This document shows positions 5,340 to 64,000 of a stretch of DNA of 64,000 nt, piece after piece. The notes below the pieces were generated by a model. The model saw only the letters and a list, made by a program, of their open reading frames with translations, was not told the origin of the DNA and did no database searches. The stretch lies in the NCBI RefSeq assembly GCF_046119375.1, contig NW_027362763.1:417012001-417076000 (forward strand), written 5' to 3'. This stretch comes from Phyllobates terribilis. Lineage: Eukaryota. The stretch's first letter is position 1. Every line of letters starts with the position of its first letter. A program made the position numbers and the translations under genes.

Positions 5340-7180
5340 ATGGAATTGTTCAATAAAGGGCCCAAAATTAAGATAACATAGATGGGAGAGGTCTCTATGA
5401 ATAGGAATTCCTAAGTATTTGATACCCTGTGAGGGCCAGGCAAAGGGAAAGTTGGACTGGATGGAATCCTATATGGATTTAGGGAGGGAGACATCGAGGG
5501 CCTCAGACTTCGCTGCATTGATTTTAAAATTTTACCATGTAACAAAGTGATCTATTTCAGCCATAACAGCAGGGATGGATATATGTGATTGAGTGATATA
5601 TACTAGGACATCATCAGCAAATAGAGAGCACTTGTACTCGGTGCCTCCCACCTCAATCCACCTAATATTGGGGTTATGGCGAATTGATGAGAGCAGGTGC
5701 TCCGTCACTAGGATGTATAAGAGAGGGGACAGAGGACATCCCTGCCTTGTCCCATTGGTGATTGTGAAAGGTGATGAAAATGTTCTGACGCACCCCCTGG
5801 GCCTTGGGACACCCGGAGCCGGACCCTTTTTGGTGGATGCTGGTGGTTGTAGTCTTCGTGGCGGCGATCCGGTTCCGTGGCTCAGGGCGGTCAAACCAGT
5901 GGCGGAACTATTTATGTGGTTTTGATGTTTAAATGTCCGACTACGCCACCCGTGGATTGCGGTCAGAGTGAACCGCCGCTACAGGGCAGACCGCTAAGGC
6001 TGGTGTTGTGGGTGCAGCAGAGCGTAGCATAACTCCCCACGGGAGGAGTATAGCCTCAGGGCAGTGTATGCGGAGGATGGGGGTGATGGTGCAGGGCAGC
6101 AGCAGTAACGACACGGAGTCAGTGATGCAGTTCAGGGCCTTTACTCACAGTTCTTATTATCCAGACCACGTCTGCAGGTAACGGCTGCCCACGTCGTACT
6201 GTGCTCACCAGGTGAGGGGCTCAGACAACTCCCAGATAACTTTGGAGCGCTTCACAGGACCCCCTTTGTGTGTCCTTTGTCTGGCCTTTCTTACCAACAC
6301 TTCTGTCCGGCTGCCTCGGGCCTCCTCTTGGTAAACTTGGCGCCAGTTTCCCTGACCCTATGTGGTGCCTTCCTAGCGGGTGGAGCAAGGGGCTGCGCCA
6401 CATAAAATGTCAGAGCCTCCGGTTTCTAGCTGAGGGTCGTTTCCTGCCTCCACTAGTTCGGGGACCGGTCTCCCCCTTTGGCCTGACCCCTCCACGCAGG
6501 TGGATTCGGGCGTGCGGTGGCGACTCGCCCGTCCGCACCCCTGGGATCCCTTCATTCCTCGTTCCTGGAGCCTTCTCCGCTCCTCTTCCTTCCTTCTCCC
6601 TCTTGCAGGCCTGGGCCTCTGTTACTAGGCCCGCCTCCGGAGCAGAGCTCATGCAGAGCCCCTGCTCCCTGCCACTTCTGCTCAGACTTCTCTGCACTGA
6701 ACTAAGATGGTGCCCACCTTTTATACTCCCTTCTCAATGCACCCAGGAACTGCTTCCTCCTTGCTCCTGCACTGCAGGGTTCCCCTTCCTCAGTGTTCCC
6801 TCCCCCCACTCCAGCCAGGGACAGGGACTGTCGTGCCCATCTCAGGGGCATATTGGTCGCCCTGCCCCACGGCAATGTGGTGTAATGCATGCAGGTGTCG
6901 GGTCCTGATCCACACTCCATCCTTATCTGAGAGTGAGATATCACACCTCTGGGTGAGGTGCAATACGTCTGTAGCAACCGAGCCCTCGGTGCTACAGTTC
7001 CATTTATCTTCAGCCTAGGTGACGTATTGTGATACAGGGCCGTGATTTTGGCTATAAAAGGGTCCCCTAGACCCCTACCCCAAGCTTTTTAAGAGAATCA
7101 TATATGGCGTGCCAGGAGACTCTATGGAATGCTTTCTCAGCATCCAACGAGAGTATCTACTTACAAATTTTTAACTGCAT
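5340..7180 (-). mobile_element. L1-clade (L1/Tx1) LINE reverse transcriptase fragment, split by a solo LTR
   Basis: Removing 5786-6996 joins LSLDAEKAFHRVSW...[28 protein letters not shown]...SLFADDVLVY...IKYLGIPI, which are L1-type RT motifs. Confidence 0.9.
5786..6996 (-). mobile_element. Solo LTR (Ty3/Gypsy family, 1211 bp) with 4-bp TSD GTTC
   Basis: TG...CA termini (minus strand TGTAGCACCG...GGGGGTGCGTCA). GTTC at 5782-5785 and 6997-7000. U5 end similar to the LTRs of the Gypsy elements in this window. Confidence 0.92.
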
Positions 7181-19198: not shown

Positions 19199-20242
19199 TG
19201 TGGCACCCCAGGTCTGGTCGCCACAGTGGCAGCAATGTCATGTCTGAGAGCAGGTGGGAGGTTCCCTGGTTGGGGACAATTAGCAAGCAGCACCTCCTGC
19301 CTCAGTCCAGGGAGGGGAGAAATCTGCCCTTTATAAACTGGATCTGGGGCGAGGTTAGAGACCAGTTAGAGAGAAGTTCCAGACAAGGTTCCAGTGAAGT
19401 TGCAGATAGGGACAGGTCAGCAGCAGGCTGAGGAGTCCCTGTAGGCAGAGGAGCAACACGAGGCCAGGAGGGGAGCTAGCAGAGCTCATGCTGGCTAGAG
19501 ACTTACAAAGCCGGACACTGGAGTCCGAGGCTGTGAGGGTTTTAAGCCCAGCAGCAGAAAACCACCACGCAGGGGTCTTCAAGTCCTCTGGCCCAAGGAA
19601 GCCCGGAGGCTCAGCCACACGAGAGGGACCACTACTACCCCGGAGGGGTGAGAAGTATGGAAGGCCCGAGTCGCCAGTCATACGGGCGAGAACAACACGG
19701 TACACTCAGAGACGTGGGCTACCACTACACTACAGCGGGATAGCAAAGAAAGAGTGAAGTCAGCATGGTAGGCCTACAAACTCCCCCTGACCAGCGGGAT
19801 TTCCCAGTTGCTCTCAGACTGACCAGGCCTCCATTGTTAACCTGTATTCCGGACGGGTCCCTTAATACCACCAACAGTAAAGACCCTGAATTGCATGACA
19901 GACTCCGTGTGGTTACTGCTGCTCCCGCGCACCATCACCACCAATATCCCTATTTACTGCCCTGAGGCTATACTCCTCCCGTGGGGAGTTATACTACCCT
20001 CTGCTGCACCCACAGCACCAGCCTCAGCGGTCTGCCCTGCAGCGGCGGTTCACTCTGACCGCAATCCATGGGTGGCATAGTCGGATATTTAATCGCAAAA
20101 CCCTATAAATAGACCGCCATTTGGGTTGACCACCCTGAGCCACGGGACCGGGTCTCCGCCACGCAAGGGCTACAACCCCCAGCATGCACAAAAGGTCCGG
20201 TTCCGGGTATCCCCACACATACATGGCCCAGGGGGCGCGTCA
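19199..20242 (+). repeat. Gypsy-1 5' LTR (1044 bp)
   Basis: TGTGGCACCCC ... GGGGGCGCGTCA, immediately followed by the PBS. Confidence 0.92.
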
Positions 20243-20247
20243 ACTTT

Positions 20248-20266
20248 TGGCGTAGTCGGCAGGATT
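20248..20266 (+). promoter_or_regulatory. Primer binding site, tRNA-Ser(AGA/UGA)
   Basis: TGGCGTAGTCGGCAGGATT is complementary to the vertebrate tRNA-Ser 3' end ...AATCCTGCCGACTACGCCA (tRNA sequence recalled, not looked up). Confidence 0.88.
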
Positions 20267-26183: not shown

Positions 26184-26214
26184 TGTGGCACCCCAGGTCC
26201 CAGGGGGCGCATCA
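26184..26214 (+). repeat. Gypsy-1 3' LTR reduced to 31 bp by internal deletion
   Basis: PPT CTAGGGGGGAA, then TGTGGCACCCCAGGT joined directly to CCCAGGGGGCGCATCA, then TSD CATA. Confidence 0.9.
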
Positions 26215-29200: not shown

Positions 29201-29562
29201 TGCTGACAAGCTGACCCTCATCAAAATGAACAAGAACTGGATTGGACCAGACTTCTCATCACCACCAAATGACAGCAGAGTAACATAAAGTCAAATCCAC
29301 TGTGTTATTTCGGGAGGTGTATTCCCATGCACCGCTTCACACCCACACATGGGTATACGCTTCCTCATTTCGGCTGTATTTTGCTCTTCTCCTTATCCTC
29401 AGCCTCCACCACCATTATACCACCAGGGTGACCTTGGTCCGTGTTGCCAGCATTGCAAGTTCCTCTGTCTTAATTTTTGGTAGCTTTTGTTTGGAAGGCA
29501 TAGGAAAAGATTATGGGAGACCCACTCTGGGAATAATGTTTTTAAGATGCTGTACTGCATGG

Positions 29563-34757: not shown

Positions 34758-37700
34758 TAGTGATGAGCGAGCATGCTCTCTACTGCTCGGTGCCCACCCA
34801 AGCATCTCACTGCTCGGGCGAGCAGTGAGATTTTTAGGAAAAACCCCACTAAGAATTTAAAGACACATGGAGCAGGGCCACAGTAACAAAGTACGACATG
34901 TTCCCATTAGAAAGGAGAGGGTCTGCTATACAGTTATAGGGTATGCAGTGAGTCCAACGGCTGACCATTTTTAGGAAAAACCCCACTAAGAATTTAAAGA
35001 CACACAGAGCAGGGCCACAGTAACAACAAATTCCCATTAGAAAGGAGTGGGTCTCCCATTGTGTTTGCCTATGCAGTGAATGCAAGGGCTGCCAAAAATT
35101 TGGAGGCACTTCAATGCCCCTTGGAAGAGACGTGGAGGAGGGCCTCATAAAAAAATGTTCCCATTAGAAAGGAGCAGGCCTCCTATACTTGTAATGCCCA
35201 TGCACTAAGTGTATGGGCTGACAAACATTTACCCCTGGGGGGTATACATGAACATACTGTATAAAAATTTTTTTTACGTGCATCATAGACACCCTTTAAA
35301 AAAATGATGTGGGTGTTGCATCATGGACCACGGTCACCCTGGTGATATGGTGGTGGAGGATGAGGAAAAGGAGGAGGACAAGAGGAAATAGACAAAATCA
35401 GGAAGCGTATACCCATGTCTGGGTGTGAAAAGGTGCATGGGAATATACCTCCCCAGAAAAGACACTGGATTTGAGTTTATGTTACACTGCTATCATTCGG
35501 TGGTGTTGAGAAATCTGGCCCAATCCAGCCCTTGTTCATTTTTATAAGAGTCAGCCTGTCAGCATTTTCAGTTGACAGGCGGATGCGCTTATCAGTTATA
35601 ATTCCACCAGAGGCAATAAAAACCCGCTCTGATAAAACGCTGGCGGCAGGGGAGGCCAGGATCTCCAAGGCATAGAGAGTCAGTTCATTCCACGTATCCA
35701 GCTTGGATACCCAATAATTATAAGGCACAGAGGAATCACGGAGGACGTTGGTACGGTCGGCAAGGTACTCCCTCAGCATCTTTCCAAACTTTGCACTCCT
35801 TGTGAGAGTACCCCGCGCCTCAGGGCCTGTGCGATAGGATGGTCTGAGAAAACTCTCCAGGAACTTTGACAGTGTTTCCCTGCCTCTGCTGGATTGAAGT
35901 TGTGTCTCTCTCTTCTGTTCTCCTTGGTTGTCCAACGAAGTGTGCCCTCTGCCGCCAGCGTTTTCAGATGGGAATTTTTTTAATAGTTCCGCAACAAGGG
36001 CCTTCTGGTATTGCCCCATTTTTGTAGACCTGTCTGCCTCAGGAATAAGAGATATAAAGTTTTCCTTGTAGCGTGGGTCTCGAAGCGTCACCAACCAGTA
36101 ATGACTGTCACCCAAAATTTTGAGAATGCGAGGGTCATGGGAAAGGCAGCGTAACATAAACTCAGCCATGCGTGCCAGACTACTAACAGGCAAGACTTCC
36201 GTGTCCTCACCAAGAGGATGACTGACCATGCTCTCCTCCTCCTCTCTGTCCTCTGGCCATCCACGCTGAACAGACGGTATGACAGCTGTGCAGGTAGTAC
36301 CGTCCATAGTGCATGAAACTAGCTCCTGTCCTTCCTCCTCCTCCTCCTCTTCCTCATTGTCACCCAAACCACATTGGGATGAGATGAGGCTTGGCTGTGT
36401 GTAATCACCCTGTATGGTTCCTTGCTCCATCTCATCGTGCTCCGCCTGAAATGCATTCTCTTTGATTGTGAGCAGAGAGCGTTTCAGAAGACAGAGAAGC
36501 GGGATGGTGATGCTAATTATGGCGTCATTGTCTCTCACCATCTTGGTGGAGTCCTCAAAGTTTTGGAGGATGGTACATATGTCTGACATCCATGTCCACT
36601 CCTGAGGTCTTATGTGTGGAGTCTGAACTGAATACCGACGGCCTTGTTGATGCTGGTACTCAACAACTGCCCTCTTCTGCTCACAAATCCTTCCCAACAT
36701 CTGTAGTGTAGAGTTCCAACACATGGGGACATCACACACCAGTCTGTGAGTCGGAAGCTGCAAACGCTGCTGAAACACGGCAAGGGCGGCGGAAGCTGTA
36801 GCTGACTTTCTAAAATGAGCACACAAGCGGCGTACTTTAACAAGCAGATCCGGCAGCTCTGGGTAGGATTTGAGAAACCGCTGAACCATGAGGTTAAGCA
36901 CATGGGCCAGGCATGATACGTGTGTGAGCTCGCCTCGCCTCAGAGCCGCCACCAGTTTCCGGCCATAGTCACACACGACCATGCCTGGCTGTATATTCAG
37001 CGGTGTGAGTCACAGATCTGCCTGCTCTTTCAGAGCTGTCCATAGCTCTTCAGCATTGTGCGGTTTTTCACCTAAGCATATTAGCTTCAGCACAGACTAT
37101 TGCTGCTTGGCCGAGGCAGTGCTGCAGTGCTTCCAGTTTGTGACTGATGTGGTCATTTTTGAGATGGAGGCTGAAGAGGAGGGGGAGGCTGAGGAGGATG
37201 AGGTGGAGGAGCTGTAGACCATGGGGGCAACCTTGATTGACCTAGGGCCCGCAATCCTTGGCGTCGGGAGGACGGCTTCCACTATGTTAACCCAGTGTGC
37301 CGTCAGCGAGATGTACCGTCCCTGCCCACAAGAACTTGTCCACATGTCCGTGGTTAGGTGGACTTTACCGGTAACTGCATTGTTGAGAGCGCGGCTAATG
37401 TTTTGGGACACGTGCTTGTGTAATGCGGGGACGGCACACCGGGAGAAATAGTGGCGGCTGGGCACCGTGTCCCTAGGGACGGCCGCCGCCATCAGGTTGC
37501 GGAATGCTTCCGTCTCCACGAGCCTAAAAGGCAACATTTTGAGCACAAGCAGTCGTGAAATGTGAGAATTTAGTAGTGTGGCCTGTGGGGCGTTGGCTGC
37601 ATATTTGCGCTTGCGATCCATGGACTTGGGTATGGACAACTGAATGCTGCGCTGGGACAAGGACAAGGACGTGCTTCCTGATGCTGCTACTTGATAGTGT

Positions 37701-39690
37701 GCAGTGACAGGTGCAGGGCAGGAGGCGTCTTCGCATGCACCATGGACAGGGGATTGGCTTGCATGCACAACAGCGGAAGAAGCAATGGTGCCACCCGCAG
37801 ACACTATTCCTGGACCCTGGAGTTCTGCCCACAAAGTCGGGTGCTTTGCTGCCATGTGCTTGATCATGCTGGTGGTGGTCAGGCTAGTCGTTTTGCCACC
37901 CCTGCTGATGCTGGCCTGGCAGGTGGTGCAAATGGCCTTTTTGGGGTTATCGGCAGAGTTTTTAAAAAACAACCAGACTTGGAAAGACCTAACAGTTGTA
38001 CTGGCAACTTCCTTCGTGTTGGTGTTACGGGGAATGGTTGCCTGCCTTCTGTCTGCGGCCACCACACTGCTTCTTCCTGCCTGTTGGGGTGCTCTGCCTC
38101 CCTCCCCCTGTGTGCTGCTGTCCTCGCTCTGCATGTCCTCCTGCCAGGTTGGGTCAGTTACTATATCATCCACCACTTCGTCTTCCACTTCCGCACCCTG
38201 GTCCTCCTCCTGACCTTTTGGCAATTGTGTCTCATCATCGTCCACCTCTTGTGACACTTTCCCACCGTCGCCTTCGTGTGACCGTGGCTGCTCAAATATT
38301 TGGGCGTCGCTGCACGCGATCTCCTCTTGCCCCGCTTCAAGTGGACCGGGCGAGAGGCGCGAATCTATAAATGGAAAAGTGAACAGCTCTTCAGAGTGTC
38401 CAAGTGTGGGATCAGTTGTCTCTGGGTACTCGGCGTGGTGGGAGAAAGGAGGCTCAGGGTGAGGAATATGCGGTCCAGACTCATGGCTACTGAGACTTGA
38501 CTGTGTGGAAGACAGGGTGGTGGTGGTGGTGGCTAAGTGACTGGAAGCATTATCTGCTATCCAACCAATAACCTTTTGACACTGCTCTGGGTTCAATAGT
38601 GGTGTGCTGCGGTCCCCTAGAAATTGGGACAGAAAGGTCAGGCGAGAAGATGTGGATGTTTGTTGTGGCACAATTTCGGCTTGCCCACGGCCTTGCCTGT
38701 AGGTAAGTAGTTTGAACAGCAAATTGCGGTGAATTGCTTCAATGACACACTAAAGGAAATTTTTAATGGAGGCCAGAAATGGCAATATTTTCTGACAACA
38801 TATATGTGATCCGTTTGACGGAGAAAACAGAGTTTTAAATACCTGGCCTGTAGGTAAGTAGTTTGAACAGCAAACTGCAGTGAATTGCTTCAATGACACA
38901 CTAAATGAAATTTTTAATGGAGGCCAGTAATGGCAGTATTTTCTGACAACGTATATGTGATCCGTGTGACGGAGAAAACAGAGTTTTAAATATCTGGATT
39001 TCTAGCGCTCTTATATGGAGAGGACCTGGCTGTATTCTGTAGTGCCAACAAGCAAATGACACAGAAAAAATGGTGTTCTCTGGATTGCTTTTTAAGAAAA
39101 TAATGAGAATTAAGATCCAAAGAAAAGTATTCCTGGCCCCTGAGACCTGGGCCTTTGTATAGAAATATCTAACAGCAGCAGAAGGCAGAATTGGAATGGA
39201 GCCTCTTGTGCTATATGCACTGCAGTCTGCTATATACCCTGCTTGCCTATACACTCTGCCTGCCTGATATCTCTGCAGATAGATTAGTCCTCAGAAGGAC
39301 TGTTTGTTAAGATGGATATGTGTAATGTACGGTTTTTCTCCCTACACTACCTATTACACAATCAAATCTCCTCCTGACACAGCAGCAGCTCTCCCTACAC
39401 TGTCTGATCCGGAGTGACTGTGACGAGCATGGCGGTGCCAGGTCTGATATAGACCTGATGATGCTGTGCGGTCAGCCAATCACTGTAATGCCCACAACCA
39501 ACATGGCTGCGGCATTACAGTGCATGGCAGGGAATCCCTGCATGTTCATTGGCTCTCTAAAGAGCGCCAAACATGCAGGGAGGGGACTCGAGTTCCCGCC
39601 CAAGCAACCCGGAATTACCCGCCGAGCTTGTCGAGCACTGTGATGCTCGGGCGAGTACCGAGCAGTGGCGAGCACGTTCGCTCATCACTA
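34758..39690 (-). mobile_element. hAT element 2 (same family as element 1), rearranged right end, no TSD
   Basis: Left-end sequence at 39690 is the reverse complement of 17339-17580. The other terminus TAGTGATGAGCGAGCATGCTC at 34758 also resembles a left end. Flanks ATCATTAG and TATCTGTG do not match. Confidence 0.85.
35477..38722 (-). pseudogene. hAT/BED transposase pseudogene of element 2
   Basis: BED finger (QVWLFFKNS...ICTTCQ...MIKHMAAKH), HLTTDMWTS, VVCDYGRK and SPAASVLSERVF; in-frame stops between the two ORF segments; N-terminus truncated. Confidence 0.93.
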
Positions 39691-41964: not shown

Positions 41965-43219
41965 TGTGGCGCCCCTGAGGGTTCAGTCGCCGTAGAGGTA
42001 CTGTACCTCACCCAGAGGTGTGGTGTCTCCTTCTTTCAGGTAAGGAGGGAGTGCTGCCCGGAACCCCAACACCTGCATCCAACACGACACTGCTCCAGGC
42101 TGGCTGGAAGGGCAAGATGCAATGTGTTTTCCTGCTGAGCCCTGGCCCTGGCTGGAGTGGGGGGAACCCAAAGGTAGGGGGAACCAGTAGTGGGTGTGGG
42201 TGGAGGAAGTAGTTTAGAGGAGCACTTTGACAGTAGGTATAAAAAGGGAAGCCATCTTAGGGTGGCAGATCAGTGAGTGAGGACAGACAGTCTGGGAGCA
42301 GAGTCTCTTTAGGAGCTCTGCTCCACAAGTAGGGCCCAGTCCTAGAGGCCCAGGTGGGGAGCAGAGGATTAGGCTCCGATCTAAAGAAAGGATCCTAGGG
42401 GGTACGGCGAGTGCGAGACGGTACCCATACGTCCCGAATCTGTCAGAAGACAGAGAGATCGTAGGCCGCAAGAAGGGGACCGGCCCCTGGTCCAGCCGTT
42501 TTACTCTAGGTCTCGGCTGGGAAAACCGGAGGCTTCTGGCTTATATAGTCAGTTGCTGAAGCCTCATTCTAATCCCCGTGAGGTGAGAGTCAAGCAGGTC
42601 CGGGAACTCCGATGCACAGGAGGGACTTCAGAGCACCCGAGCGGGACTGAGAGTGGGAAGCGCAGGGCAGGAGGGAGAAAGACCCAGCGTGAAGATGGTC
42701 TAGCTAGGAACACAAGAAAATGGGGTTCCGTCAGGCACTCCTAATCTGCCTGAGGAAGTGCTGAACCCCTGCCTGGTGAACACAGCGCGACGTGGGAGGC
42801 TGGCACCCGTACAGTGCACCAGTGGAACTGTCATAAGAACTGTGAGTAAAGACTCGGATGACTGCACCGCACTGCCTCCGTCCATTATTTAAAGCTGCGC
42901 CATCTTTCCCTCCTGGCACTACAACGCCCAGCTACTTACACTACTTACACTGCCCTCGAGCTCGCTCTACCTGTGGAGAGCCACACCATCCCTGCTGCCG
43001 TAACACCAGCTCCAGAGGACTGCTCCGCAGCGGCGGCACCCTTTAGCTGCAATCCACAGGTGGCGTCACGAACACTATTCCAAAAACCCCATATAAATAG
43101 AAGTTTCCCCTTTTTACTGACCGCCCTGGGTCACGGACCGGACCAGCCACCGTGATATCCCCCACCGGCATACACATAGGCCCGGCTGCCGAGTACCGCA
43201 CGGCCCAGGGGGCGCGTCA
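41965..43219 (+). mobile_element. Solo LTR (Gypsy family, 1255 bp) with TSD CCAC
   Basis: TGTGGCGCCCC ... GGGGGCGCGTCA; CCAC at 41961-41964 and 43220-43223. Confidence 0.93.
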
Positions 43220-45120: not shown

Positions 45121-46466
45121 CTTATTCCCCTCCAGTCGCTATAAAGTGTTGTTAAGTCAAAGAAGACCCTGGTGCTGGCTAGGAGGAAGGAAAGAGGTGA
45201 TGTGCTGCTCCAATGTGCTAGTAGGAGGAAGGCCATAAATTTTGAAGATTTGGGACCTTTGAGTAGAACGTGCAGTTTACTGTGTCAGGGGCTAGACTGG
45301 GATATCAACCATCCGAGTCTTACTTAGACTTTGGTTTCCGGAAGTTCTAACTTGCTCCTCTGTGCTGAGTCAACAAGTAGTAAAAAGTGGTGGAACAGCA
45401 CCTCAAGTCATAAAGATAGAAATGAGTGCATGCCTTTGAGTTGAAAAATGTCCACATAAACCACCTACAATATAGTCTGTAGAGCAAAGAAGAATGCAGC
45501 AAAATCAATTGTTGCACTGGAGCTCACAGAATTCTATGTTTCAGCTGTAACATTAGAACCAAAACATCATATTCTATGAACTTTACTCTATTAAGGCAAT
45601 GAGTGACTAGAAAGTAGATGAGACTACATTAGATGAGATTAGATGAGCCTACCTTAAATGTGAATTGGCCTAAAATTAACGTCCTGAATTGTATTGAACT
45701 GTGGGGTATAGACAGTGGGAGGAGGAAACCTAAATACAGCCCTTGTGAAAATGGTCTAAGTCAACAGTTTCCTTGTCAGTGTGAGGGTGAGAAGAGGCCT
45801 GGACGTCTACATCTTGTGATGGAAGAACCTGTCAGGCATGATTTTAAGAAAAAATTTGGAAGATTGTGTCCTTGAGAATCTAGACGAAGTGAAGTAAAAC
45901 AGGAAATATTGACAAAAAATAAAACCCTTGAGACTCAGTACTGTGGATTGGATGTTCATGTGTATGGGCAAGTCAGGAGAATAAGGGAGTAACGTCAACT
46001 TGTGGCTAGCATAGGAAATTTTCAGCTCTGTTGGTTACAGCGGCTGGTGGGGACAGCAGCTGATATAGTGTCGGTTACTGTCCTGGTGGTATATATGGCC
46101 TGCACTTTTGTAGTTGTTGTGGGAAGCATCTGTGATTGTCATGGATGACAAATTATGATGTTATAAGGAGGCAATCACGAGGGAGCATATAGAAAAGTAA
46201 GGCACCATTGGAGTCAGAAATTTAAACCATAGGAATTATTAGATCCGTGGGCTGATTTCAGAAAAATTTAAAAGGGTACGCCCATCTCCAAGATCCTATC
46301 CCAATATGTAGTAGGTGTAATAATAATAATATTAGCAAATATCTCCAATTAGAAATGTAGAATAGTTTTTCTGATTCACTATGTCTCTTTCCTCATGTGC
46401 AGGCATTGCAGGACCTTAGGTATCCATGGTTACGACCACTAGCAACTAGATAACTATCGCTATATA

Positions 46467-48098
46467 CAGTTATATGAAAAAGTTTGGGCACCCCTATTAA
46501 TCTTAAGCTTAATGATTTCTTAAAATTGGTGTTTTTGCAACAGCTATTTCAGTTTGATATATGTAATAACTGTTGGACACAGTAATGTTTTTGCCTTGAA
46601 ATGAGGTTTATTGTACTAACAGAAAATGTGCAATCTGCATTCAAACAAAATTTGAAAGGCGCATAAGTATGGGTACCCTTATCATTTTCTTGTTTTAAAT
46701 ACTCCTACCTACTTTTTACTGACTTACTAAAGCACTTTTTTTGGTTTTGTAACCTCACTGAGCTTTGAACTTCATAGCCAGGTGTATGCAATCATGAGAA
46801 AAGCTACTTAAAGTGGCCACTTGCAAGTTGTTCTCCTGTTTGAATCTCCTCTGAAGAGTGGCATCATGGGCTCCTCAAAACAACTGTCAAATGATCTGAA
46901 AACAAAGATTATTCAACATAGTTGTTCAGGGGAAGGATACAAAAAGCTGTCTCAGAGATTTAACCTGTCAGTTTCCACTGTGAGGAACATATTAAGGAAA
47001 TGGAAGAACGCAGGGACAGTTCTTGTTAAGGCCAGAAGTGGCAGGCCAAGAAAAACATCAGAAAGGCAGAGAAGAAGAATGGTGAGATCAGTCAAGGACA
47101 ATCCTCAGACCACCTCCAGAGAGCTGCAGCATCAACTTGCTGCAGATGGTGTCACTGTGCATCGGTCAACTATACAACGCACTTTGCACAAGGAGAAGCT
47201 GTATGGGAGAGTGATGCGAAAGAAGCCGTTTCTGCAAGCACGCCACAAACAGAGTCGGCTGAGGTATGCAAAAGCACATTTGGAGAAGCCAATTTGTTTT
47301 TGGAAGAAGGTCCTGTGGACTGATGAAACCAAGATTGAGTTGTTTGGTCATACAAAAAGGCGTTATGCATGGCGGCAAAAAAACACAGCATTCCAAGAAA
47401 AACACTTGCTACACACAGTAAAATTTGGTGGAGGTTCCATCATGCTTTGGGGCTGTGTGGCCAATGCCGGCACCGGGAATCTTTTAAAGTTGAGGGACGC
47501 ATGGATTCCACTCAGTATCAGCAGATTCTTGACAATAATGTTCAAGAATCAGTGACAAAGTTGAAGTTACGCAGGGGATGGATCTTTCAGCAAGACAATG
47601 ATCCAAAACACCGCTCCAAATTTACTCAGGCATTACAATGTTCTGGAATGGCCATCCCAGTCCCCAGACCTGAATATCATTGAACATCTGTGGGACCATT
47701 TGAAGAGGGCTGTCCATGCTCGGCGACCATCAAACTTAACTGAACTGGAATTGTTTTGTAAAGAGGAATGGTCAAAAATACCTTCATCCAGGATCCAGGA
47801 AATCATTAAAAGCTACAGGAAGCGACTAGAGGCTGTTATTTTTGCAAAAGGAGGATCTACTAAATATTAATGTCACTTTTCTGGTGAGGTGCCCATACTT
47901 ATGCACCTGTCAAATTTTGTTTGAATGCAGATTGCACATTTTCTGTTAGTACAATAAACCTCATTTCAAGGCAGAAACATTACTGTGTCCAACAGTTATT
48001 ACATATATCAAACTGAAATAGCTGTTGCAAAAACACCAATTTTTATAAAACATTAAGCTTAAGATTAATAGGGGTGCCCAAACTTTTTCATATAACTG
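46467..48098 (+). mobile_element. Full-length Tc1 element (1632 bp, ~210-bp IR/DR-type TIRs, TA TSD)
   Basis: TA-CAGTTATATGAAAAAGTTTGGGCACCCC ... GGGGTGCCCAAACTTTTTCATATAACTG-TA. Confidence 0.95.
46866..47870 (+). pseudogene. Tc1 DD34E transposase, frameshifted
   Basis: MGSSKQLSNDLKTKII paired-like HTH; WTDETKIELF, QQDNDPKH and WPSQSPDLNIIEHLW motifs; frameshift near 47440 and a short deletion after KHRSKF. Confidence 0.93.
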
Positions 48099-48813
48099 TA
48101 AGTGGTTGTAAGCATGGATAGCTAAGGTCCTGCAATGCCTGCACATGACGGAAGAGATATAGCGAATCAGAAAAACTATACTACATTTCTAATTGTAGGT
48201 ATTTGCTAATATTATTATTATTACACCTACTCCATATTGGGAGAGGATTTTGGAGATGGGAATACCCCTTTAAATACTAGTGTGGACACAATCTTATCAC
48301 TAAGTGGTGGTATTATTCAGTCATTGCAGCATTATTTAGCCCATATGTAGAGAGATTTTTGATCAGTATATATAAATATAGTTTATAAGTTTGCAGGATT
48401 TATTTATGGTGGGACATATTATTAAGGGGTGAAATTAACCAGCACACATTTTCATCGTGAATAATTATCATGCAGTGAAATCGCACATCCTCTTCCTTCT
48501 AGGGTATATAATATCTGCAGGTGCTACAGGTGTTTTAAATGTTTATCAATGGTCCTAATTTTCACCTGAACCCTGAAGTCACTCTAAACTATAAGTGAAG
48601 TTGTTCTCTTCTGTTGGGCTTTCAGAGACTTCTGAATGAAAAACATTTTTTCAGTTATTTAGGCTTACTTTGGCAGACTAAACAAATTTAACAATTTAGA
48701 CAAGCAGCACACTTCAAGTTCACATTTAAAAGAAACTCCAGCTAGAAATTCATGAAAATAAAAAGGATATCCTTAAAGACTAATTAATCATTACTACCTT
48801 GACAGTTTCTTAA

Positions 48814-51105: not shown

Positions 51106-52164
51106 TGACTCACCCCCTGGGCCAGTGCTGTAGTGCGGCGCGCGTGCGCGCGGGGGATACCCGGAGCCGGATCCGATGGGGGTAGTAGTCTTCGTGTGGC
51201 GGTGACCCGGTCCGCGCCCAGGGTGGTCAAACTAAGTGTCAGTTATTGGTATGATGGTATTAGTGTCCGACTACGCCACCCGTTGAATGCGGTTATGAAA
51301 CCGCCGCTGCAGGGCAGACCGCTGAGGCCGGTGGTATAGGTGTGCAGCAATGTTGATATAACCCCCAACGGGAGAGGTATGGCCTCAGGGCAGCGGATGT
51401 GGGTGATGTTGGGAGTGATGGTGTGGATGTCCCAGCACTAACGGTGCGACAAGGAAGCACGGAGACGCGAGGGTACAGTTCAGGGCCTTTACTGATGGTA
51501 CAAGGCAAATTCCCCCGGGAGTACTGGCTAGTAGTTGGGGCCTGGTTAGTCTGCGAGTAAGCCGGAGTTCCCCTGGCCAGGTGGAGTTGTAGGCCTTCCC
51601 GTTAGTCTGTACCCTTCCTGGCTACCCTGCTTTCGGCGGTTACAAGTAGCCCACGTCCCTGGGTATACCGTGTGGTGCTCACCCGTATGGCTGGTGACCT
51701 GGGGCCTCCTGTTAGCCTCCGCTCCGGGATGGCGGTGCTGGTCCCTTCGTTGTGACTGAGCCTCCGGGCTTTTATGGCCAGAGGACCTGGAATCCCCTGC
51801 CGGATGGATTCTGCTGCTGGGTATATCTTAGTCCCCACAGCCTCGGACTCCTGTGTCCGGTTTTAGTACCTTCTCCCAGGGCGAGCTCTGCACAGCTCCA
51901 GCCCCTGGCGCTTCTCCTTGGCTCCTACAGAGCTCCTGATGTCTCTCTGTCCCTGTTTCTACGTGTCCAGACCAGACTCCGTCTCTGTCTGGAACTCCTC
52001 TCTCTAACCCTGCCTCAGCCCCAGTTTATGTAGGGGAAGTTCTTCCCCTCCCAGGACTGGGCAGGAGGTGTGGCATGCTTAGGATTCCTGCCCAGGAGAC
52101 CTCCCACCTGCTCACAGACGTAATACTGCTATTACTGTGGAAACCAGACCCCTGGGGTGCCACA
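51106..52164 (-). repeat. Gypsy-2 3' LTR (1059 bp)
   Basis: Near-identical to 58031-59057 plus 63812-63843; PPT complement TTCCCCCCTAG at 52165-52175. Confidence 0.95.
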
Positions 52165-52520: not shown

Positions 52521-55500
52521 TTAGATTCTCCAACGTACGGGCATCTGGCCTCTGGTATCCCTAGTGGACCTACGGAGCTCACTAACTGGTCCTGCACTAC
52601 AGGGTGTAGAAGGTGTTATGGGCAGGCTGGGCAGCTTTCTGCGCACTCTTTGGCTCACTAGGGGCATGGCAGGCTCACTACTAGCAGAGGGTTGATCCTC
52701 CTGTACTGCTGGTGTGGACTCTTCTGCCTCTTGGGCCGGCTGCTTTTCCAGCTCTACTGGTTCCTCTGTAGGCACTTGCGGGGCTGGCTGGAGAAAGGTG
52801 AGGACGGGTACCACGACAGCACCGTTTACTTGTGTCCAAGACCGGGGGAAGTCTCCGAGTACAGTCCTGATCATTTCTTCCCTTTCCTCTGCGGGTCGAG
52901 GGTTTTCTTGATCTTCTTCTTCAGGGTTTTGCAGCTGCTCGGGACACTTCTTCAGGTGGTCTCTGGAGACAACGGCTGTGGTTTCTCCTCCATCCTTACT
53001 GATCACGCAAATCTTTGGGTTCTCATGGCTTGATGGCAGTACGGTGTACGGGTCCTTCTCCCACTGGTCGTCCAACTTGTGGAGCCGTCTTTTCCTCTTC
53101 AAGACCTGCTCTCCAGGTACCAGGGGAACAGTGGGAGCATACTGATTATAAGCCCTCTCTTGCCTTTCTCTAGCTTGAGACAGACTTCGCTCCACGCTCT
53201 CCTGCACTTTCCGATACTGCTGCTGCCGTCCTGTATCCCAGTCTGCCTCTGGCGAGGTGTCCTCGGGCGTCAGGACTCCCATATCCAGGTCGATAGGCAG
53301 CTTACCAGGCCTCGCTCTCATTAGGTAAGCCGGGGTACAGTTGGTAGAACCTACAGGGATGTGGTTGTATAGGTCCACCAGATCAGGCAGCTTCTCAGGC
53401 CACAGACTGCGTTCTTCCAGGGGCAATGTTTTCAGGAGGTCTATCACCACCTGGTTCATCTTCTCGCAGAGTCCATTAGTCTGTGGGTGATAGGGCGTTG
53501 TTCTTATCTTCGTGCAGCCATACAGGTTGCAGAACTCCTGGAAGACTTCCGCTTCGAAGGCTGGCCCTTGGTCTGTCAGCACTTGGTCCGGGTACCCGTG
53601 TGGACGGCAGAAGTGCTGCTGGAAGGCTCTAGCTGCTGTTTGAGCCGTTAAGTCCTTGACCGGGACCACCACCAGGAACCGGGAGTAATGATCTACGATT
53701 GTAAGGGCGTAGACATACCCAGATCTGCTTGGAGCCAGTTTCACATGGTCCAGGGCTACCAGTTCCAGTGGCTGTCGGGTGATGATGGGCTGCAAGGGAG
53801 TCTTCTGGCTGGCACGGTCCTTCCTTCTTAGGTGGCACGGTCCACAGTCTCTGCACCACCTCTCGATGGCTCCTCTCATGCCTACCCAGTAGAACCGTTC
53901 ACGCAATAAGAACTCCAGCTTCTTCCACCCGAAATGTCCTGCTCCGTTGTGGTACGCCTCCAGAATCATAGCCGCGTCTCGTCTGGGGACCACTACCTGC
54001 CAGGTCAACTCATGTGTTCGAGAGTTAACCATTCTCCGGCACAACTTCTCCCTGTAGAGGAACAGCCTACTTTTCTCCTTCCACAGTTGCTTAGTCTCCT
54101 CTGGGGCGTCTGGGTCCAGACTGGCATCGGCTTGGGTCAGCATTTCCTTCACCAGACGGACTGCAGGATTACTATCTTGCGTCTCCGCCCAGTTGTAGTG
54201 GGGCAAGGGATTGAACGTCGCGGAGCGCCTGTCCTTCACACGGTGGGAATACAGGGTAATCCCATGACGGTGGAACGCAGGGAGCTCAACTTCTTCCAGA
54301 TCTTCTGGATCTTCCCCCACGTCCGGTAAGTTCGGCATTCTAGACAGGGCATCCGCGTTGGCATTTGAGCGTCCTGCCCGGTATTTGATGGTGAATTCAA
54401 AGTTGGACAGGCGAGCCATCCATCTCTGTTCCAGAGCACCGAGCCTTGCAGTGTCCAGGTGTGTCAACGGGTTGTTATCCGTGTACACGATGAATTTGGA
54501 GGAGGCAAGGTAATGCTTGAAACGTTCGGTCACTGCCCACACTACTGCCAGGAACTCCAGCTTGAATGAGCTATAATTCTCAGGGTTCCTCTCGGTGGGT
54601 CGTAGCTTTCGGCTAGCGTAAGCGATTACTCGTTCTTTTCCTTGCTGGATCTGGGACAGCACGGCTCCTAGCCCGATGTTACTTGCGTCCGTGTGGAGGA
54701 TAAAGGGCTGGCTGTAGTCTGGATATGCCAGGATTTCATCCCCCGTGAGGGCCATCTTCAGCTGGCAAAAGGACTCCTCTTCCAGCTTTTCCCACCTGAA
54801 GGGCAGCTTCTGGTTTTTGGCTTTTCGAGATTGACCTATCAGGAGGTCCTGCATAGGGGCTGCCATTTTGGTGAAACCGGGAATGAATCTTCGGTAGTAG
54901 CCTACCAACCCGAGGAACTGCCGCACTTCCTTTATGCTGGAGGGTCTTGGCCAGTCCTTAATCACGGTGATCTTATCAGGGTCAGGAGCCACTCCGTCAG
55001 CACTCACCACGTGTCCCAGGTATTGCACCTTTGGTTTCAGGAGGTGACACTTTGAGGGTTTCACCTTTAGGCCGTAGTTTGCCAGAGCTTCGAACACTTC
55101 TGCCAGGTGTTTCAGGTGGTCCTCGTAGGTCTTGGAATAGACGATGACATCGTCCAGGTATAACAGGACCGTCTCGAAGTTCCGGTGTCCCAGACAGCAT
55201 TCCATCAACCGTTGGAAGGTTCCTGGTGCGTTGCAGAGCCCGAACGGCATACAGTTAAATTCGCTGAGACCCATCGGGGTGGTGAATGCGGTCTTCTCTC
55301 GGTCTGCCTCTGCTACAGGAACCTGCCAGTACCCGCTAGTGAGATCCAAAGTAGAGAAGAAGTTAGCAGATTTTAATGCAGCTAAGGACTCTTCTATCCT
55401 TGGTAACGGGTACGCATCTTTGTGTGTGATACGGTTGACCTTCCTGTAATCTACACACATTCTCATAGTGTTGTCCTTCTTTTTCACTAAGACTAGTGGA

Positions 55501-57619: not shown

Positions 57620-58007
57620 CCTCCTCCCCCCTAGTGGACCGTGGCCTACCTTGCGATGATCCTCTTCCGTAGGCCGCGGCTCCGCAGTGGATCGTCAGGG
57701 TTGAGGACCTTCCGTCGCGCTCCTGTGACGTCGGCGTCTGCTGGGCTCCTTCCAGGACCTTACGCAACGTCCGGACGTGAGGCGGGGCTTCAGTTCTCGT
57801 GGGCTTTCGGAGTCCACGCCCCTCTTCTTCCCGCGCGGCGCCCTCAGGATGGCGTCCAATGGCGGGAAAACTCCACGGATGGCGGGAAGAAGGCAGAAGA
57901 TGGCGTCGGATGGCGGGAATCGGCTCCAGATGGTGGGAAACTTCACCACAGGTAAGTATAAAAGTCTCTTTTTTCAGGCACGCAGTACCCGGTGGTTACG
58001 GGCACGT

Positions 58008-58026
58008 AATCCTGCCGACTACGCCA
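58008..58026 (-). promoter_or_regulatory. Gypsy-2 primer binding site, tRNA-Ser(AGA/UGA)
   Basis: AATCCTGCCGACTACGCCA on plus, 4 nt from the LTR boundary at 58031. Confidence 0.9.
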
Positions 58027-60233
58027 AAGTTGACTCACCCCCTGGGCCAGTGCTGTAGTGCGGCGTGCGTGCGCGCGGGGGATACCCGGAGCCGGATCCG
58101 ATGGGGGTAGTAGTCTTCGTGTGGCGGTGACCCGGTCCGCGCCCAGGGTGGTCAAACTAAGTGGCAGTTATTGGTATGATGGTATTAGTGTCCGACTACG
58201 CCACCCGTTGAATGCGGTTATGAAACCGCCGCTGCAGGGCAGACCGCTGAGGCCGGTGGTATAGGTGTGCAGCAATGTTGATATAACCCCCAACGGGAGA
58301 GGTATGGCCTCAGGGCAGCGGATGTGGGTGATGTTGGGAGTGATGGTGTGGATGTCCCAGCACTAACGGTGCGACAAGGAAGCACGGAGACGCGAGGGTA
58401 CAGTTCAGGGCCTTTACTGATGGTACAAGGCAAATTCCCCCGGGAGTACTGGCTAGTAGTTGGGGCCTGGTTAGTCTGCGAGTAAGCCGGAGTTCCCCTG
58501 GCCAGGTGGAGTTGTAGGCCTTCCCGTTAGTCTGTACCCTTCCTGGCTACCCTGCTTTCGGCGGTTACAAGTAGCCCACGTCCCTGGGTATACCGTGTGG
58601 TGCTCACCCGTATGGCTGGTGACCTGGGGCCTCCTGTTAGCCTCCGCTCCGGGATGGCGGTGCTGGTCCCTTCGTTGTGACTGAGCCTCCGGGCTTTTAT
58701 GGCCAGAGGACCTGGAATCCCCTGCCGGATGGATTCTGCTGCTGGGTATATCTTAGTCCCCACAGCCTCGGACTCCTGTGTCCGGTTTTAGTACCTTCTC
58801 CCAGGGCGAGCTCTGCACAGCTCCAGCCCCTGGCGCTTCTCCTTGGCTCCTACAGAGCTCCTGATGTCTCTCTGTCCCTGTTTCTGCGTGTCCAGACCAG
58901 ACTCCGTCTCTGTCTGGAACTCCTCTCTCTAACCCTGCCTCAGCCCCAGTTTATGTAGGGGAAGTTCTTCCCCTCCCAGGACTGGGCAGGAGGTGTGGCA
59001 TGCTTAGGATTCCTGCCCAGGAGACCTCCCACCTGCTCACAGATGTAATACTGCTATTGTAGCACCCTGAGGATTCGGCTGCTACAGGGGTATTACACCT
59101 CAAGCCAGAGGTGTGGTATTCCACTCCCGGGTAAGGATGGAGTGTGGAACTGAGCTCAGTTAGCTGCATGCACTACACACATCCCATTTCCGGGGAACAG
59201 ACCGATGGTACTCCCACTAGAGAAATGTGCAGGTACGACAGTGTCTGTTCCTGGCTGGAGTGGGAGGGGGGTGGAACATCCCAGTAGTGTAGGGGCAGAT
59301 AGGGGAAGCAGCCTGGGTAAAGCTAGGAGCTCATTGGGTGCTGGTCACCTGAGCTCACACATAGAGGGAGTATATAAGGTGGGCACCATCTTAGATCAGG
59401 GTCAGTCTGTGAGACGTCGGTCAGTCAGTCTGTCTGAGAGCCTGAGAAGCAGAGCAGAGGAGAAGGAAGAGGGACCCAGAGGCGCAGGAAGAGGGGACCC
59501 CAAGAGCCCATAAGAGAGCTAATAGGGTGAAGGGTCGGCAACAGGGTACCGGATCCCAAGCTGGTGGAGGCTACAGTACTAATCCTCAGCCAGAGACCGG
59601 AGGTCGTGGGCAGGATCTGCCACGACCACCCACTAAATCCACCCGGAAGGCAGACCAAGAATAGGGTCAGGGAGCCCAGAGGAGGCTTGACCAACAAGAG
59701 GCCCGAGGGAGCCGGACTTAGGTGGATCCCTGGTGGGAACGGCCAGAAGAAGGGAGAGTCAGAAAGGAGCTCAGGACCACACTCCGGAGTTGCCTGGGAG
59801 TTGACCGAGTCCAGGACCTGGTGGACGCAGCACGGCTCGGGTGGTCACTGCTGTACACAGTGACCCGAGCAACACCAGTAAGTAAAACCCTGGAACTGCA
59901 TTTTATGCCTCTGAGTCTCTTTGCTGCACCTTCACAACCACCATCCTCCACGGCTGACCCCCTGAGGCTATACCCCTCCCGTTGGGGGTTATACTACCAA
60001 AGCTGCACACATACCAACAGCCTCAGCGGACCCTGCTGCAGCGGCGGCCTTTTGACCGCAAATCAACGGGTGGCGTAGTCGACACAAAGAACTAATAACA
60101 TCTGTAGGACTGCCACACTCTGAGCTTGACACCCTGGGCACGGACCGGGTCACAGCCACTCGGAGACTACAACCCCCATCTGATCCGGCTCCGGGTATCC
60201 CCAACAACACTGGCCCAGGGGGCGCGTCAACTT

Positions 60234-60252
60234 TGGCGTAGTCGGCAGGATT
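60234..60252 (+). promoter_or_regulatory. PBS of the CSD element, tRNA-Ser(AGA/UGA)
   Basis: TGGCGTAGTCGGCAGGATT, identical to the PBS of Gypsy-1 and Gypsy-2. Confidence 0.9.
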
Positions 60253-62183: not shown

Positions 62184-64000
62184 AGTACGGTAGAGAGAGA
62201 CTGTACATAGTTACCCGTCAGGGTATAAGAACTGTTCTAGTTAAAATATAGTCCCCGTTGGGACCAGCAGATTGAACTGAAACCCGTGTGTCCCTATTCC
62301 CACTGACCGAGGACTGAGAGCGGTCATTCCTCCCTAATACCTGGCCGAGGACTGAGAGCGGCCATATTTCCCTTGTATATAGTTGCGCTTCCTAAAGCGC
62401 CCCCTACCGGTTTTATAGGGAACTGTTTTATTCCAAGAGAGACTGTCGCACCTTACCCGGTCACAAGTTGCACCGTGACCGGAGGAACCAGAAACAAGAA
62501 TGTTATTTATATGAAAAGTTTACTGCTGATATATATATATGATGTTTTCTATGTTTATGTTTATGAAAAAAATTGTATGTTTTGGATGTTTATATCTTAC
62601 AGCCCGAGGACGTGCTGTGATTTACCAGGGGGGAATGTAGCACCCTGAGGATTCGGCTGCTACAGGGGTATTACACCTCAAGCCAGAGGTGTGGTATTCC
62701 ACTCCCGGGTAAGGATGGAGTGTGGAACTGAGCTCAGTTAGCTGCATGCACTACACACATCCCATTTCCGGGGAACAGACCGATGGTACTCCCACTAGAG
62801 AAATGTGCAGGTACGACAGTGTCTGTTCCTGGCTGGAGTGGGAGGGGGGTGGAACATCCCAGTAGTGTAGGGGCAGATAGGGGGAGCAGCCTGGGTAAAG
62901 CTAGGAGCTCATTGGGTGCTGGTCACCTGAGCTCACACATAGAGGGAGTATATAAGGTGGGCACCATCTTAGATCAGGGTCAGTCTGTGAGACGTCGGTC
63001 AGTCAGTCTGTCTGAGAGCCTGAGAAGCAGAGCAGAGGAGAAGGAAGAGGGACCCAGAGGCGCAGGAAGAGGGGACCCCAAGAGCCCATAAGAGAGCTAA
63101 TAGGGTGAAGGGTCGGCAACAGGGTACCGGATCCCAAGCTGGTGGAGGCTACAGCACTAATCCTCAGCCAGAGACCGGAGGTCGTGGGCAGGATCTGCCA
63201 CGACCACCCACTAAATCCACCCGGAAGGCAGACCAAGAATAGGGTCAGGGAGCCCAGAGGAGGCTTGACCAACAAGAGGCCCGAGGGAGCCGGACTTAGG
63301 TGGATCCCTGGTGGGAACGGCCAGAAGAAGGGAGAGTCAGAAAGGAGCTCAGGACCACACTCCGGAGTTGCCTGGGAGTTGACCGAGTCCAGGACCTGGT
63401 GGACGCAGCACGGCTCGGGTGGTCACTGCTGTACACAGTGACCCGAGCAACACCAGTAAGTAAAACCCTGGAACTGCATTTTAGGCCTCTGAGTCTCTTT
63501 GCTGCACCTTCACAACCACCATCCTCCACGGCTGACCCCCTGAGGCTATACCCCTCCCGTTGGGGGTTATACTACCAAAGCTGCACACATACCAACAGCC
63601 TCAGCGGACCCTGCTGCAGCGGCGGCCTTTTGACCGCAAATCAACGGGTGGCGTAGGCGACACAAAGAACTAATAACATCTGTAGGACTGCCACACTCTG
63701 AGCTTGACACCCTGGGCACGGACCGGGTCACAGCCACTCGGAGACTACAACCCCCATCTGATCCGGCTCCGGGTATCCCCAACAACACTGGCCCAGGGGG
63801 CGCGTCACTATTACTGTGGAAACCAGACCCCTGGGGTGCCACAAAAGCGCAATGAGCATGACAAAACTGAGGAAATAATGGCTCTAGCCATCCATGACTA
63901 ACAAGTTATAAGAGTTCCAGACATGTGGATCATAGATCCGCTGGGTTTTGGCTCTTCTGGAACTTAGAAACTGCTCCACATTCGAGAGTGCAACAGGCAC

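What the first reader, a model, noticed from the sequence alone, without database searches (positions are those of the whole stretch)
43061..43074. Every complete Gypsy-family LTR here carries a second PBS-like motif ~150 nt before its end, and it switches with the tRNA-Ser isoacceptor
TGGCGTAGTCG(G), the first 11-12 nt of the true PBS, occurs inside the LTR at 5937-5948 (minus), 20073-20084 (one change), 51267-51278 and 58192-58203 (minus), and 60071-60081 and 63649-63659 (one change). At the equivalent position the solo LTR at 41965-43219 has TGGCGTCACGAACA. This is complementary to the 3' end of a different tRNA-Ser (CGA, ...CCTGTTCGTGACGCCA; recalled from human tRNA sequences). The LTRs are otherwise highly diverged, so conservation plus an isoacceptor swap points to selection for tRNA pairing. 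Possible roles (inference): a bipartite or second primer site as in Ty3, tRNA-bridged genome circularisation or dimerisation, or a decoy or target for 3' tRNA fragments.
Basis: partly seen in the sequence, partly recalled or inferred. Interest (0 to 1): 0.7.

Follow-up and report, generated by a model that had tools for sequence, protein, structure and literature searches.

The report
Retrotransposon's three-site tRNA primer clamp

Summary
The motif is real and co-switches with the primer. Genome-wide, motif and PBS type agree in 59,013 (Ser-AGA/TGA type) plus 4,238 (Ser-CGA type) matches and disagree in 5. The tRNA genes are in this genome. An LTR tree needs two changes, not one. The motif is 10-11 nt, the complement of tRNA nt 66-76, and probably lies in U5. 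Two further parts turned up. (1) An 11-12-nt box in the terminal U5 hairpin loop is complementary to tRNA nt 1-11/12 and switches too; dual-specificity boxes occur on both sides of one switch. (2) A ~110-nt covarying double-pseudoknot domain ends with a 7-bp helix exactly at motif position 1. Best reading (inferred): a tRNA docking and unzipping clamp that loads the primer, with the pseudoknot blocking extension from the motif. It resembles the FIV U5/tRNA 5'-end contact, HIV PAS and T-box NCCA docking, but is none of them. A Ty3-type bipartite PBS and a tRF decoy fit poorly. No tRNA binding was measured and transcript ends were not mapped.

The parts
41965..43219 (+). Solo LTR of a Ser-CGA-type Gypsy family, 4-nt target-site duplication
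   Evidence: relatives carry the CGA-type PBS
42237..42244 (+). TATA-like box, followed by a YY1-like GCCATCTT (label recalled); inferred U3/R border shortly downstream
   Evidence: function inferred
42845..42850 (+). AGTAAA, the only A[AGT]TAAA hexamer in each of the 7 LTRs; inferred poly(A) signal, which would put everything below in U5
   Evidence: not confirmed by RNA
42953..43060 (+). Covarying double-pseudoknot RNA domain (P1, P2, P3, PK1, PK2) directly 5' of the motif
42970..42976 (+). PK1 5' strand (loop of hairpin P2)
43054..43060 (+). PK1 3' strand, ending with no spacer at motif position 1
43061..43071 (+). Internal motif, CGA type: complement of tRNA-Ser(CGA) nt 66-76 (match continues to 43074)
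43118..43219 (+). Terminal U5 hairpin domain (P4, P5) ending at the LTR end
43146..43156 (+). Loop box, CGA type: complement of tRNA-Ser(CGA) nt 1-11
5938..5948 (-). Internal motif, AGA type, solo LTR ~5786-6996 (box 5849-5862, PK1 5949-5955 with 6037-6043)
20073..20083 (+). Internal motif, AGA type, one change; 5' LTR 19199-20242 (box 20158-20173)
20248..20265 (+). True PBS, tRNA-Ser(AGA/TGA)
51268..51278 (-). Internal motif, AGA type, 3' LTR of the gag-pol element (box 51185-51200)
58193..58203 (-). Internal motif, AGA type, 5' LTR (box 58110-58125)
58009..58026 (-). True PBS, tRNA-Ser(AGA/TGA)
60071..60081 (+). Internal motif, AGA type, 5' LTR 59058-60229 (box 60155-60170)
60234..60251 (+). 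True PBS, tRNA-Ser(AGA/TGA)
63649..63659 (+). Internal motif, AGA type, one change; 3' LTR 62636-63807 (box 63733-63748)

Best explanation
These LTRs carry three sites complementary to the family's own tRNA-Ser (the motif to nt 66-76, a hairpin-loop box to nt 1-11/12, the PBS to nt 59-76), and the first two likely act as a docking and unzipping clamp that opens the tRNA acceptor stem and passes the 3' strand to the PBS. Shown by sequence and comparison: the three complementarities, their co-switch, the covarying pseudoknot that ends at motif position 1, and the near absence of integrated products joined at the motif. Inferred: the tRNA's free NCCA end pairs with the motif's UGGC and stacks on the 7-bp pseudoknot helix. 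Motif and box then take the two acceptor strands (11 + 11 bp for the 7 bp lost). The 18-nt PBS displaces the motif while the box keeps the 5' strand, as proposed for FIV. The pseudoknot directly upstream of the docked 3'-OH would keep reverse transcriptase from extending there.
For: Motif x PBS, whole genome: 59,013 and 4,238 concordant, 2 and 3 discordant. Motif x box: 170,925 and 18,754 concordant; 751 and 753 cross, and 10 of 12 cross loci read are dual boxes matching both tRNAs (2 not parsed). In 55 of 66 family representatives the best-matching 13-nt window of the whole tRNA for the loop starts at nt 1-2; own tRNA beats the other in 58 of 66, the motif in 54, the PBS in 55. The box's two halves are in the right order for the tRNA 5' strand and the wrong order for motif or PBS. 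tRNA-Ser(CGA) has a G7.U66 wobble: motif position 11 is A in 31 of 32 CGA rows (complement of U66), and the box has C opposite G7, so each follows its own tRNA strand rather than the other site. Two changes on the tree, 0% of bootstrap trees with one, AU p=0.043, with two different box solutions. Structure: 92.9% of cells paired, 21 of 44 pairs with double changes, slid controls 36-50%; PK1 96% paired with two compensatory pairs changing 3 and 2 times. Motif:tRNA duplex about -21 kcal/mol, PBS:tRNA about -34, so hand-over is downhill. Only 3 motif-to-full-PBS copies in the genome.
Against: No binding, kinetics or priming was measured. The order of events is inference; a second tRNA could sit on the motif at the same time (rival 1). 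Pseudoknot-free folding leaves motif positions 1-4 mostly paired (unpaired probability 0.15-0.16), and the MFE of the 41965 U5 extends PK1 over the first motif bases, so a free toehold is not predicted without the pseudoknot form. The box is weak in one AGA subgroup (7 rows, mean -12.7 kcal/mol, 4 of 7 above shuffles) and has a C.A mismatch in most of one CGA clade. Only two tRNA states exist here and no third was found; short-patch recombination could turn one origin into two. Gag has a CCHC knuckle, so a protein chaperone is available. The U5 location is unmapped. G-U against A-C strand bias is modest (114 vs 83, p=0.03).
Confidence: 0.5

Rival explanations
1. The motif holds a second, non-priming tRNA-Ser at the same time as the primer sits on the PBS, serving packaging, dimer bridging or a pause for minus-strand synthesis; the box serves the PBS-bound primer, as in FIV.
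For: Same complementarity and co-switch data. An 11-bp duplex of about -21 kcal/mol plus stacking could be stable. Box-to-motif and box-to-PBS distances are similar, about 80 nt.
Against: There is one box for two 3'-end sites, so a motif-bound second tRNA would have no partner for its released 5' strand once the primer takes the box. No direct evidence of two tRNAs.
Confidence: 0.2
2. The pseudoknot domain plus motif is a T-box-like sensor: only uncharged tRNA-Ser docks, stacks on PK1 and shifts the fold (P2 against an extended PK1), controlling translation, packaging or primer choice.
For: UGGN lies at the edge of a helix with no spacer, the geometry described for T-boxes (PMC7583486, passages). 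The MFE shows an alternative in which P2's 5' strand covers the motif start. The ~110-nt domain is more elaborate than a simple docking site needs.
Against: No Rfam match; no anticodon-reading part found; pairing runs 11 nt into the acceptor stem rather than 4; no expression platform identified.
Confidence: 0.13
3. The motif is a relic kept equal to the PBS by template-switch conversion during reverse transcription; any constraint on it is intramolecular.
For: L200: the 5' LTR motif is converted in place to the full 18-nt tRNA complement (4 adjacent changes) while the 3' LTR keeps the short motif. tRNA read-through copies occur at PBSs. The motif-to-box span (median 92 nt) is close to the tRNA length of 85.
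Against: Such events are 3 against more than 63,000. The match stops at 10-11 nt in all clades and positions 1-9 are near-invariant while 13-18 are free. Conversion from the PBS cannot produce the 5'-end box or its wobble-tolerant variants. The middle of the span is not tRNA-like in 0 of 66. Motif-box and box-PBS pairing is predicted in 1 of 66 each.
Confidence: 0.1
4. The sites act on the DNA copy or at the RNA 3' end: a minus-strand tRNA-like stem or a strand-transfer aid like the tRNA-like sequence reported in HIV-1 U3-R, Ty3-type circularisation, or a tRF decoy.
For: In minus-strand DNA the box and motif copies lie in tRNA order. If polyadenylation were downstream of the motif, the motif would be in R and at both RNA ends; transcript ends are unmapped.
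Against: Common box variants (GRCTGC, YGTGAY) keep G-U pairs on the plus strand and give A-C mismatches on the minus strand. A single AGTAAA lies about 190-215 nt upstream of the motif in all 7 window LTRs. The motif lacks tRF seed pairing.
Confidence: 0.07

Closest known systems
[quoted passage not shown]
   Same: A U5 hairpin contacts the primer's 5' end released by PBS annealing; the loop box here is the direct analogue.
   Different: Here the box is 11-12 nt, has co-switched with the tRNA in nature, and comes with a second acceptor-end site and a pseudoknot domain not mentioned in that passage.
HIV-1 primer activation signal, PAS (PMC1865047 abstract; PMC3185550 and PMC11181671 passages)
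   Same: An extra tRNA-pairing site in the leader whose change is needed for a primer switch.
   Different: PAS pairs with the T-arm, which the PBS releases. The motif here pairs with the same 3' end as the PBS, and the box with nt 1-12.
Ty3 and Ty1 bipartite PBS (PMC5371799, passages and section 2.2)
   Same: A Ty3/Gypsy element with more than one tRNA-pairing segment.
   Different: Ty3 has a short 5' PBS completed by U3 boxes ~4800 nt away that pair with the T and D arms. Here the PBS is a full 18 nt and the extra 3'-end site duplicates it, ~160 nt upstream in inferred U5.
T-box riboswitch discriminator (PMC7583486, passages)
   Same: UGGN placed with no spacer next to a helix, so that the tRNA NCCA end can pair and stack.
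   Different: Bacterial; 4-bp contact with the tRNA left folded; reads the anticodon through Stem I; has an expression platform. No Rfam match here.
tRNA-Lys3-gene-like sequence in HIV-1 U3-R (title and one citing sentence seen in PMC6468702; paper not held)
   Same: tRNA-complementary sequence inside an LTR.
   Different: Reported for U3-R and minus-strand transfer; here only the two tRNA ends are matched, the middle is not tRNA-like, and the place is inferred U5.

Membership tests
Ty3/Gypsy LTR retrotransposon | gag then pol in the order PR-RT-RNaseH-IN, LTRs with TG..CA ends, PBS and PPT, no env | tested here: met
   Pfam on 52521-56870 and 56636-57694; ends, PBS and PPT; no ORF of 150 aa between pol and the 3' LTR; CCHC knuckle
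tRNA-primed element | 18-nt PBS complementary to a host tRNA that is copied during replication | tested here: met
   tRNA-Ser AGA, TGA and CGA genes in G000 (L179, L180, L183); read-through tRNA copies at PBSs, e.g. L152, L156, L184, L185, L196
Ty3-type bipartite PBS | Short 5' PBS completed by a second segment pairing with other tRNA arms | tested here: not met
   PBS is a full 18 nt; the motif duplicates positions 1-11
Ty3-type bipartite PBS | Second segment in U3, at the RNA 3' end | tested here: inconclusive
   Signals point to U5; RNA contigs gave no ends
FIV-type U5/tRNA 5'-end contact | U5 stem-loop complementary to the primer's 5' nucleotides | tested here: met
FIV-type U5/tRNA 5'-end contact | The contact controls initiation of minus-strand synthesis | not testable with these tools
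   needs an in vitro assay
HIV/RSV PAS | Complement of the T-arm 5' strand that co-adapts with the primer | tested here: not met
   A 7-nt T-arm match appears in the P2 loop of CGA families but is explained by the PK1 partner with which it covaries; it does not follow the tRNA type
T-box riboswitch | UGGN adjacent to a helix with no spacer | tested here: met
   alignment A1 columns 153-159 then 160
T-box riboswitch | Stem I specifier reading the anticodon; Rfam T-box model | tested here: not met
   no Rfam hit; no shared 7-nt anticodon-loop complement
T-box riboswitch | Discriminates charged from uncharged tRNA | not testable with these tools
   needs a binding assay

The most novel reading that the evidence does not exclude
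A vertebrate retrotransposon encodes in its LTR a structured RNA machine, a double pseudoknot with a T-box-like NCCA dock plus a 5'-strand catcher, that selects uncharged tRNA-Ser by its free 3' end, unzips it by strand exchange and gates primer loading or RNA fate: a eukaryotic tRNA-sensing switch, whose change of ligand went through a dual-specificity intermediate still visible in the genome.
Probability: 0.2. Interest if true: 0.92.

Novelty: new variant of a known kind. Interest (0 to 1): 0.75.

Why it matters
How a folded tRNA is selected, opened and placed on the PBS is a long-standing question, and the extra tRNA contacts proposed for HIV-1 are disputed (PMC3185550, passages). Here evolution has run the compensatory experiment: about 190,000 genomic matches, two tRNA states, two switches with different solutions, and dual-specificity intermediates. 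The whole device fits in about 300 nt of RNA and can be tested in vitro. A second acceptor-end site capped by a pseudoknot did not appear in my literature searches (open-access library only). It also shows how a multi-site RNA-tRNA interface can change ligand stepwise.

Tried and rejected
Third tRNA state: none in the first 100 listed of 1,467 or of 396, nor in 26 matches (10 read). The 5,915 matches with a changed motif are, in the 20 loci read, mostly LTRs that share one downstream flank, i.e. passively amplified, with the AGA box intact. Box as partner of motif or PBS: my first reading; dropped when the box proved longer and ordered for tRNA nt 1-12. Captured whole antisense tRNA: 0 of 66 middles above z=2. 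PAS-like T-arm site: explained by PK1. Known RNA family: none. Transcript ends: no RNA holder listed; contigs of X1-X4 gave no poly(A) end or start, which is no evidence either way. Other genomes: the one metagenome match (L223) is chance sequence in a bacterial-looking contig; viral contigs gave 0 and 1 matches (L224 not examined). RNAalifold recovered P2, PK2 and P3 with covariation but cannot show PK1 or P1 together with them. No solved-structure match for Gag. Rows dropped: 5 of 71 clusters as rearranged before the tree; 4 of 51; the loop was not located in 4 of 66 and mislocated in 2 of 66 (L052, L132), where they count as misses. The 133 junctions required a motif within 2 mismatches, and some loci were fetched by motif patterns, so conservation figures are inflated; one search is the unbiased version. 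Supplements were not read; most subscription papers and repeat databases were not searchable.

Full report
Setting. The window lies in a 10.6-Gb genome. It holds three Gypsy elements and two solo LTRs of one superfamily: PNMA-like gag with a CCHC knuckle, pol in the order PR-RT-RH-IN, no env, and one pol-less element whose long ORF ends in a cold-shock domain.

Observation. Of the 30 loci closest to the 41965 solo LTR, 4 are 5' LTRs and all 4 have the CGA-type PBS. Among 84 LTR-PBS junctions found without asking for the motif, 45 were AGA/AGA, 34 CGA/CGA, 5 had no callable motif and none was discordant. Whole-genome exact counts (12-nt motif, 135-175 nt, 17-nt PBS) are 59,013 AGA/AGA, 4,238 CGA/CGA, 2 AGA-motif/CGA-PBS and 3 CGA-motif/AGA-PBS. 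PBS totals after a TCA end are 65,202 and 4,319. The five discordant copies belong to families whose other sampled members are concordant; two show a chimeric junction at the PBS. The genome's own tRNA-Ser(AGA) and (TGA) genes share the first 3' end and tRNA-Ser(CGA) has the second; read-through tRNA copies at several PBSs show that these tRNAs are copied as primers.

How conserved. In the unbiased set the motif is one of several conserved U5 blocks, not the only one. What singles it out is that positions 7-11 follow the tRNA type and the match ends at 10-11 nt, which is NCCA plus the acceptor 3' strand.

How many switches. From 133 junctions, 71 clusters at 88% identity were formed and 66 used. 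Trees without the motif need 2 changes (0% of bootstrap trees need one; AU p=0.043); upstream part alone 3, downstream part alone 2; again 2 with PK1, motif, box and PBS columns removed. The second AGA clade was sought after seeing two of its members. There is no outgroup, and short-patch recombination is not excluded.

Where in the LTR. Each of the 7 LTRs has one AGTAAA about 350-390 nt before its end; five have a TATA-like box by my pattern 100-330 nt from the start. That would place the motif in a long U5, present only at the RNA 5' end. This is inference; RNA contigs did not show ends.

New part 1, the loop box. The terminal U5 hairpin loop holds GCCAC plus a hexamer that switches with the motif. 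The hexamer pairs fully with the own type in 42 of 62 rows, with the other type in 2, and in 2.8% of shuffles. Read as a whole it is the complement of tRNA nt 1-11/12: contiguous in CGA families and in the second AGA clade, with a 2-5-nt bulge in the main AGA clade. In 55 of 66 rows the best tRNA window starts at nt 1-2; 57 of 66 beat shuffles at p<=0.05; own tRNA beats the other in 58 of 66, and 7 of the 8 exceptions are dual boxes. Genome-wide, motif and box agree in 170,925 and 18,754 matches and cross in 751 and 753; 10 of 12 cross loci read carry a dual box fitting both tRNAs, on both sides of the main switch. This suggests that the box became dual first and that motif and PBS switched after (inferred). 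The G7.U66 wobble of tRNA-Ser(CGA) is informative: the motif has A opposite U66 and the box has C opposite G7, which do not pair with each other. The second AGA clade also has a 7-10-nt complement of the D-loop just after the motif in 9 of 9 rows.

New part 2, the pseudoknot domain. The ~110 nt before the motif form P1, P2, P3 and two crossing helices. I named this structure by eye from the alignment, with RNAalifold agreeing on P2, PK2 and P3. On the MAFFT alignment 92.9% of cells pair, 21 of 44 pairs have double changes, no shuffle of 500 reaches that, and slid controls give 36-50%. PK1 joins the P2 loop to the 7 nt directly before motif position 1; it is 96% paired, with U-A/C-G and G-C/U-A exchanges changing 3 and 2 times on the tree. 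This explains the conserved GG before the motif. Rfam has no match.

Is the motif a primer site? Only 3 genomic copies join its upstream context to a full 18-nt PBS. Two continue into the leader, having lost the U5 end; no 3' LTR was found for them in 10 kb. In L200 the 5' LTR motif is converted in place to the full tRNA complement while the 3' LTR is not. This shows a route by which the motif can be rewritten from the tRNA or PBS. Abortive priming would leave no integrated trace, so it is not excluded.

Mechanism. Most likely (0.5): tRNA-Ser docks by NCCA on the motif and stacks on PK1; motif and box take the two acceptor strands; the PBS (about -34 against -21 kcal/mol) takes over the 3' strand while the box keeps the 5' end; PK1 blocks extension from the motif. 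That motif and box pair with the tRNA at some step I put near 0.85; the order of steps is the uncertain part. Against it: pseudoknot-free folding buries motif positions 1-4, the box is weak in one subgroup, and nothing was measured. Rivals are a second resident tRNA (0.2), a T-box-like charge sensor (0.13), a conversion relic (0.1) and DNA-level, R-based or tRF roles (0.07).

Comparison. It works like the FIV U5/tRNA 5'-end contact (PMC3230847, passage) and like HIV PAS in co-adapting with the primer (PMC1865047 abstract; PMC3185550 passages; PMC11181671 passages). The NCCA-next-to-helix geometry recalls the T-box (PMC7583486 passages). It is not a Ty3 bipartite PBS (PMC5371799 passages and section 2.2) and not a T-box member. 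PMC6088434 (passages) added nothing specific; the HIV U3-R paper was seen only as a citation in PMC6468702. Searches for a duplicated PBS in an LTR found nothing relevant in the listings. No supplements were read, and repeat databases and subscription journals were not available. An unreviewed AI note from another genome (e1-7508199) reports a PBS copy with a tRNA-matching hairpin in an LTR; I could not test it and it is no independent support. tRNA position numbers and the YY1, TATA and tRF-seed labels are from own knowledge.

Verdict. Observation confirmed; first reading partly supported; a new variant of a known kind with two additional, covariation-supported parts. Interest 0.75.

Noticed in passing
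window 60108-62183: Pol-less element with 99.7% identical LTRs whose long ORF ends in a cold-shock domain; inserted into the start of the neighbouring element's 5' LTR with a 4-nt duplication.
   Followed up: partly
window 26185-26216: The 3' LTR of the 19199 element is reduced to ~32 nt, its two ends joined at a short CCCAGG-like homology.
   Followed up: partly
window 20266-20620, 57600-58008(-), 60252-60700: Leaders after the PBS carry 3-5 CCGCCA repeats, some fitting a YY1-like GCCATnTT (label recalled); possible packaging or silencing signals, and complementary to the first PBS bases.
   Followed up: no
L152, L156, L181, L184, L185, L194, L196: PBSs extended by read-through copies of the primer tRNA reaching into the variable or anticodon arm; in L156 the far part resembles the other isoacceptor.
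   Followed up: partly
L200 (G000:C2 near 938,330,870): 5' LTR motif converted to the full 18-nt tRNA complement, 3' LTR unchanged; the 5' LTR also has a large internal deletion.
   Followed up: yes
L207-L222: One LTR end with a changed motif position recurs with the same downstream flank in most of 20 loci read (5,915 pattern matches): probably cargo of another amplified repeat.
   Followed up: partly
L112, L114-L116, L119, L120 and listing: A recurrent T-to-C change at PBS position 6 in unrelated AGA families with a normal motif; may reflect a tRNA variant or misreading at that tRNA base.
   Followed up: no
L121, L122, L127, L128, L130, L132, L139, L140, L142: The second AGA clade has a D-loop complement just 3' of the motif, and an LTR end resembling the start of the CGA-type PBS.
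   Followed up: partly
G000:C1:438.86-439.65 Mb: Dense cluster of dozens of near-identical copies of one AGA-type family, apparently segmentally amplified.
   Followed up: no
window 26223-29447 and 35318-38465; 29400-32000; 46266-48275; 7439-7558: Two inverted hAT transposase copies around a 52-nt satellite; a Tc1-like element with long inverted repeats; an 18S rRNA fragment.
   Followed up: no
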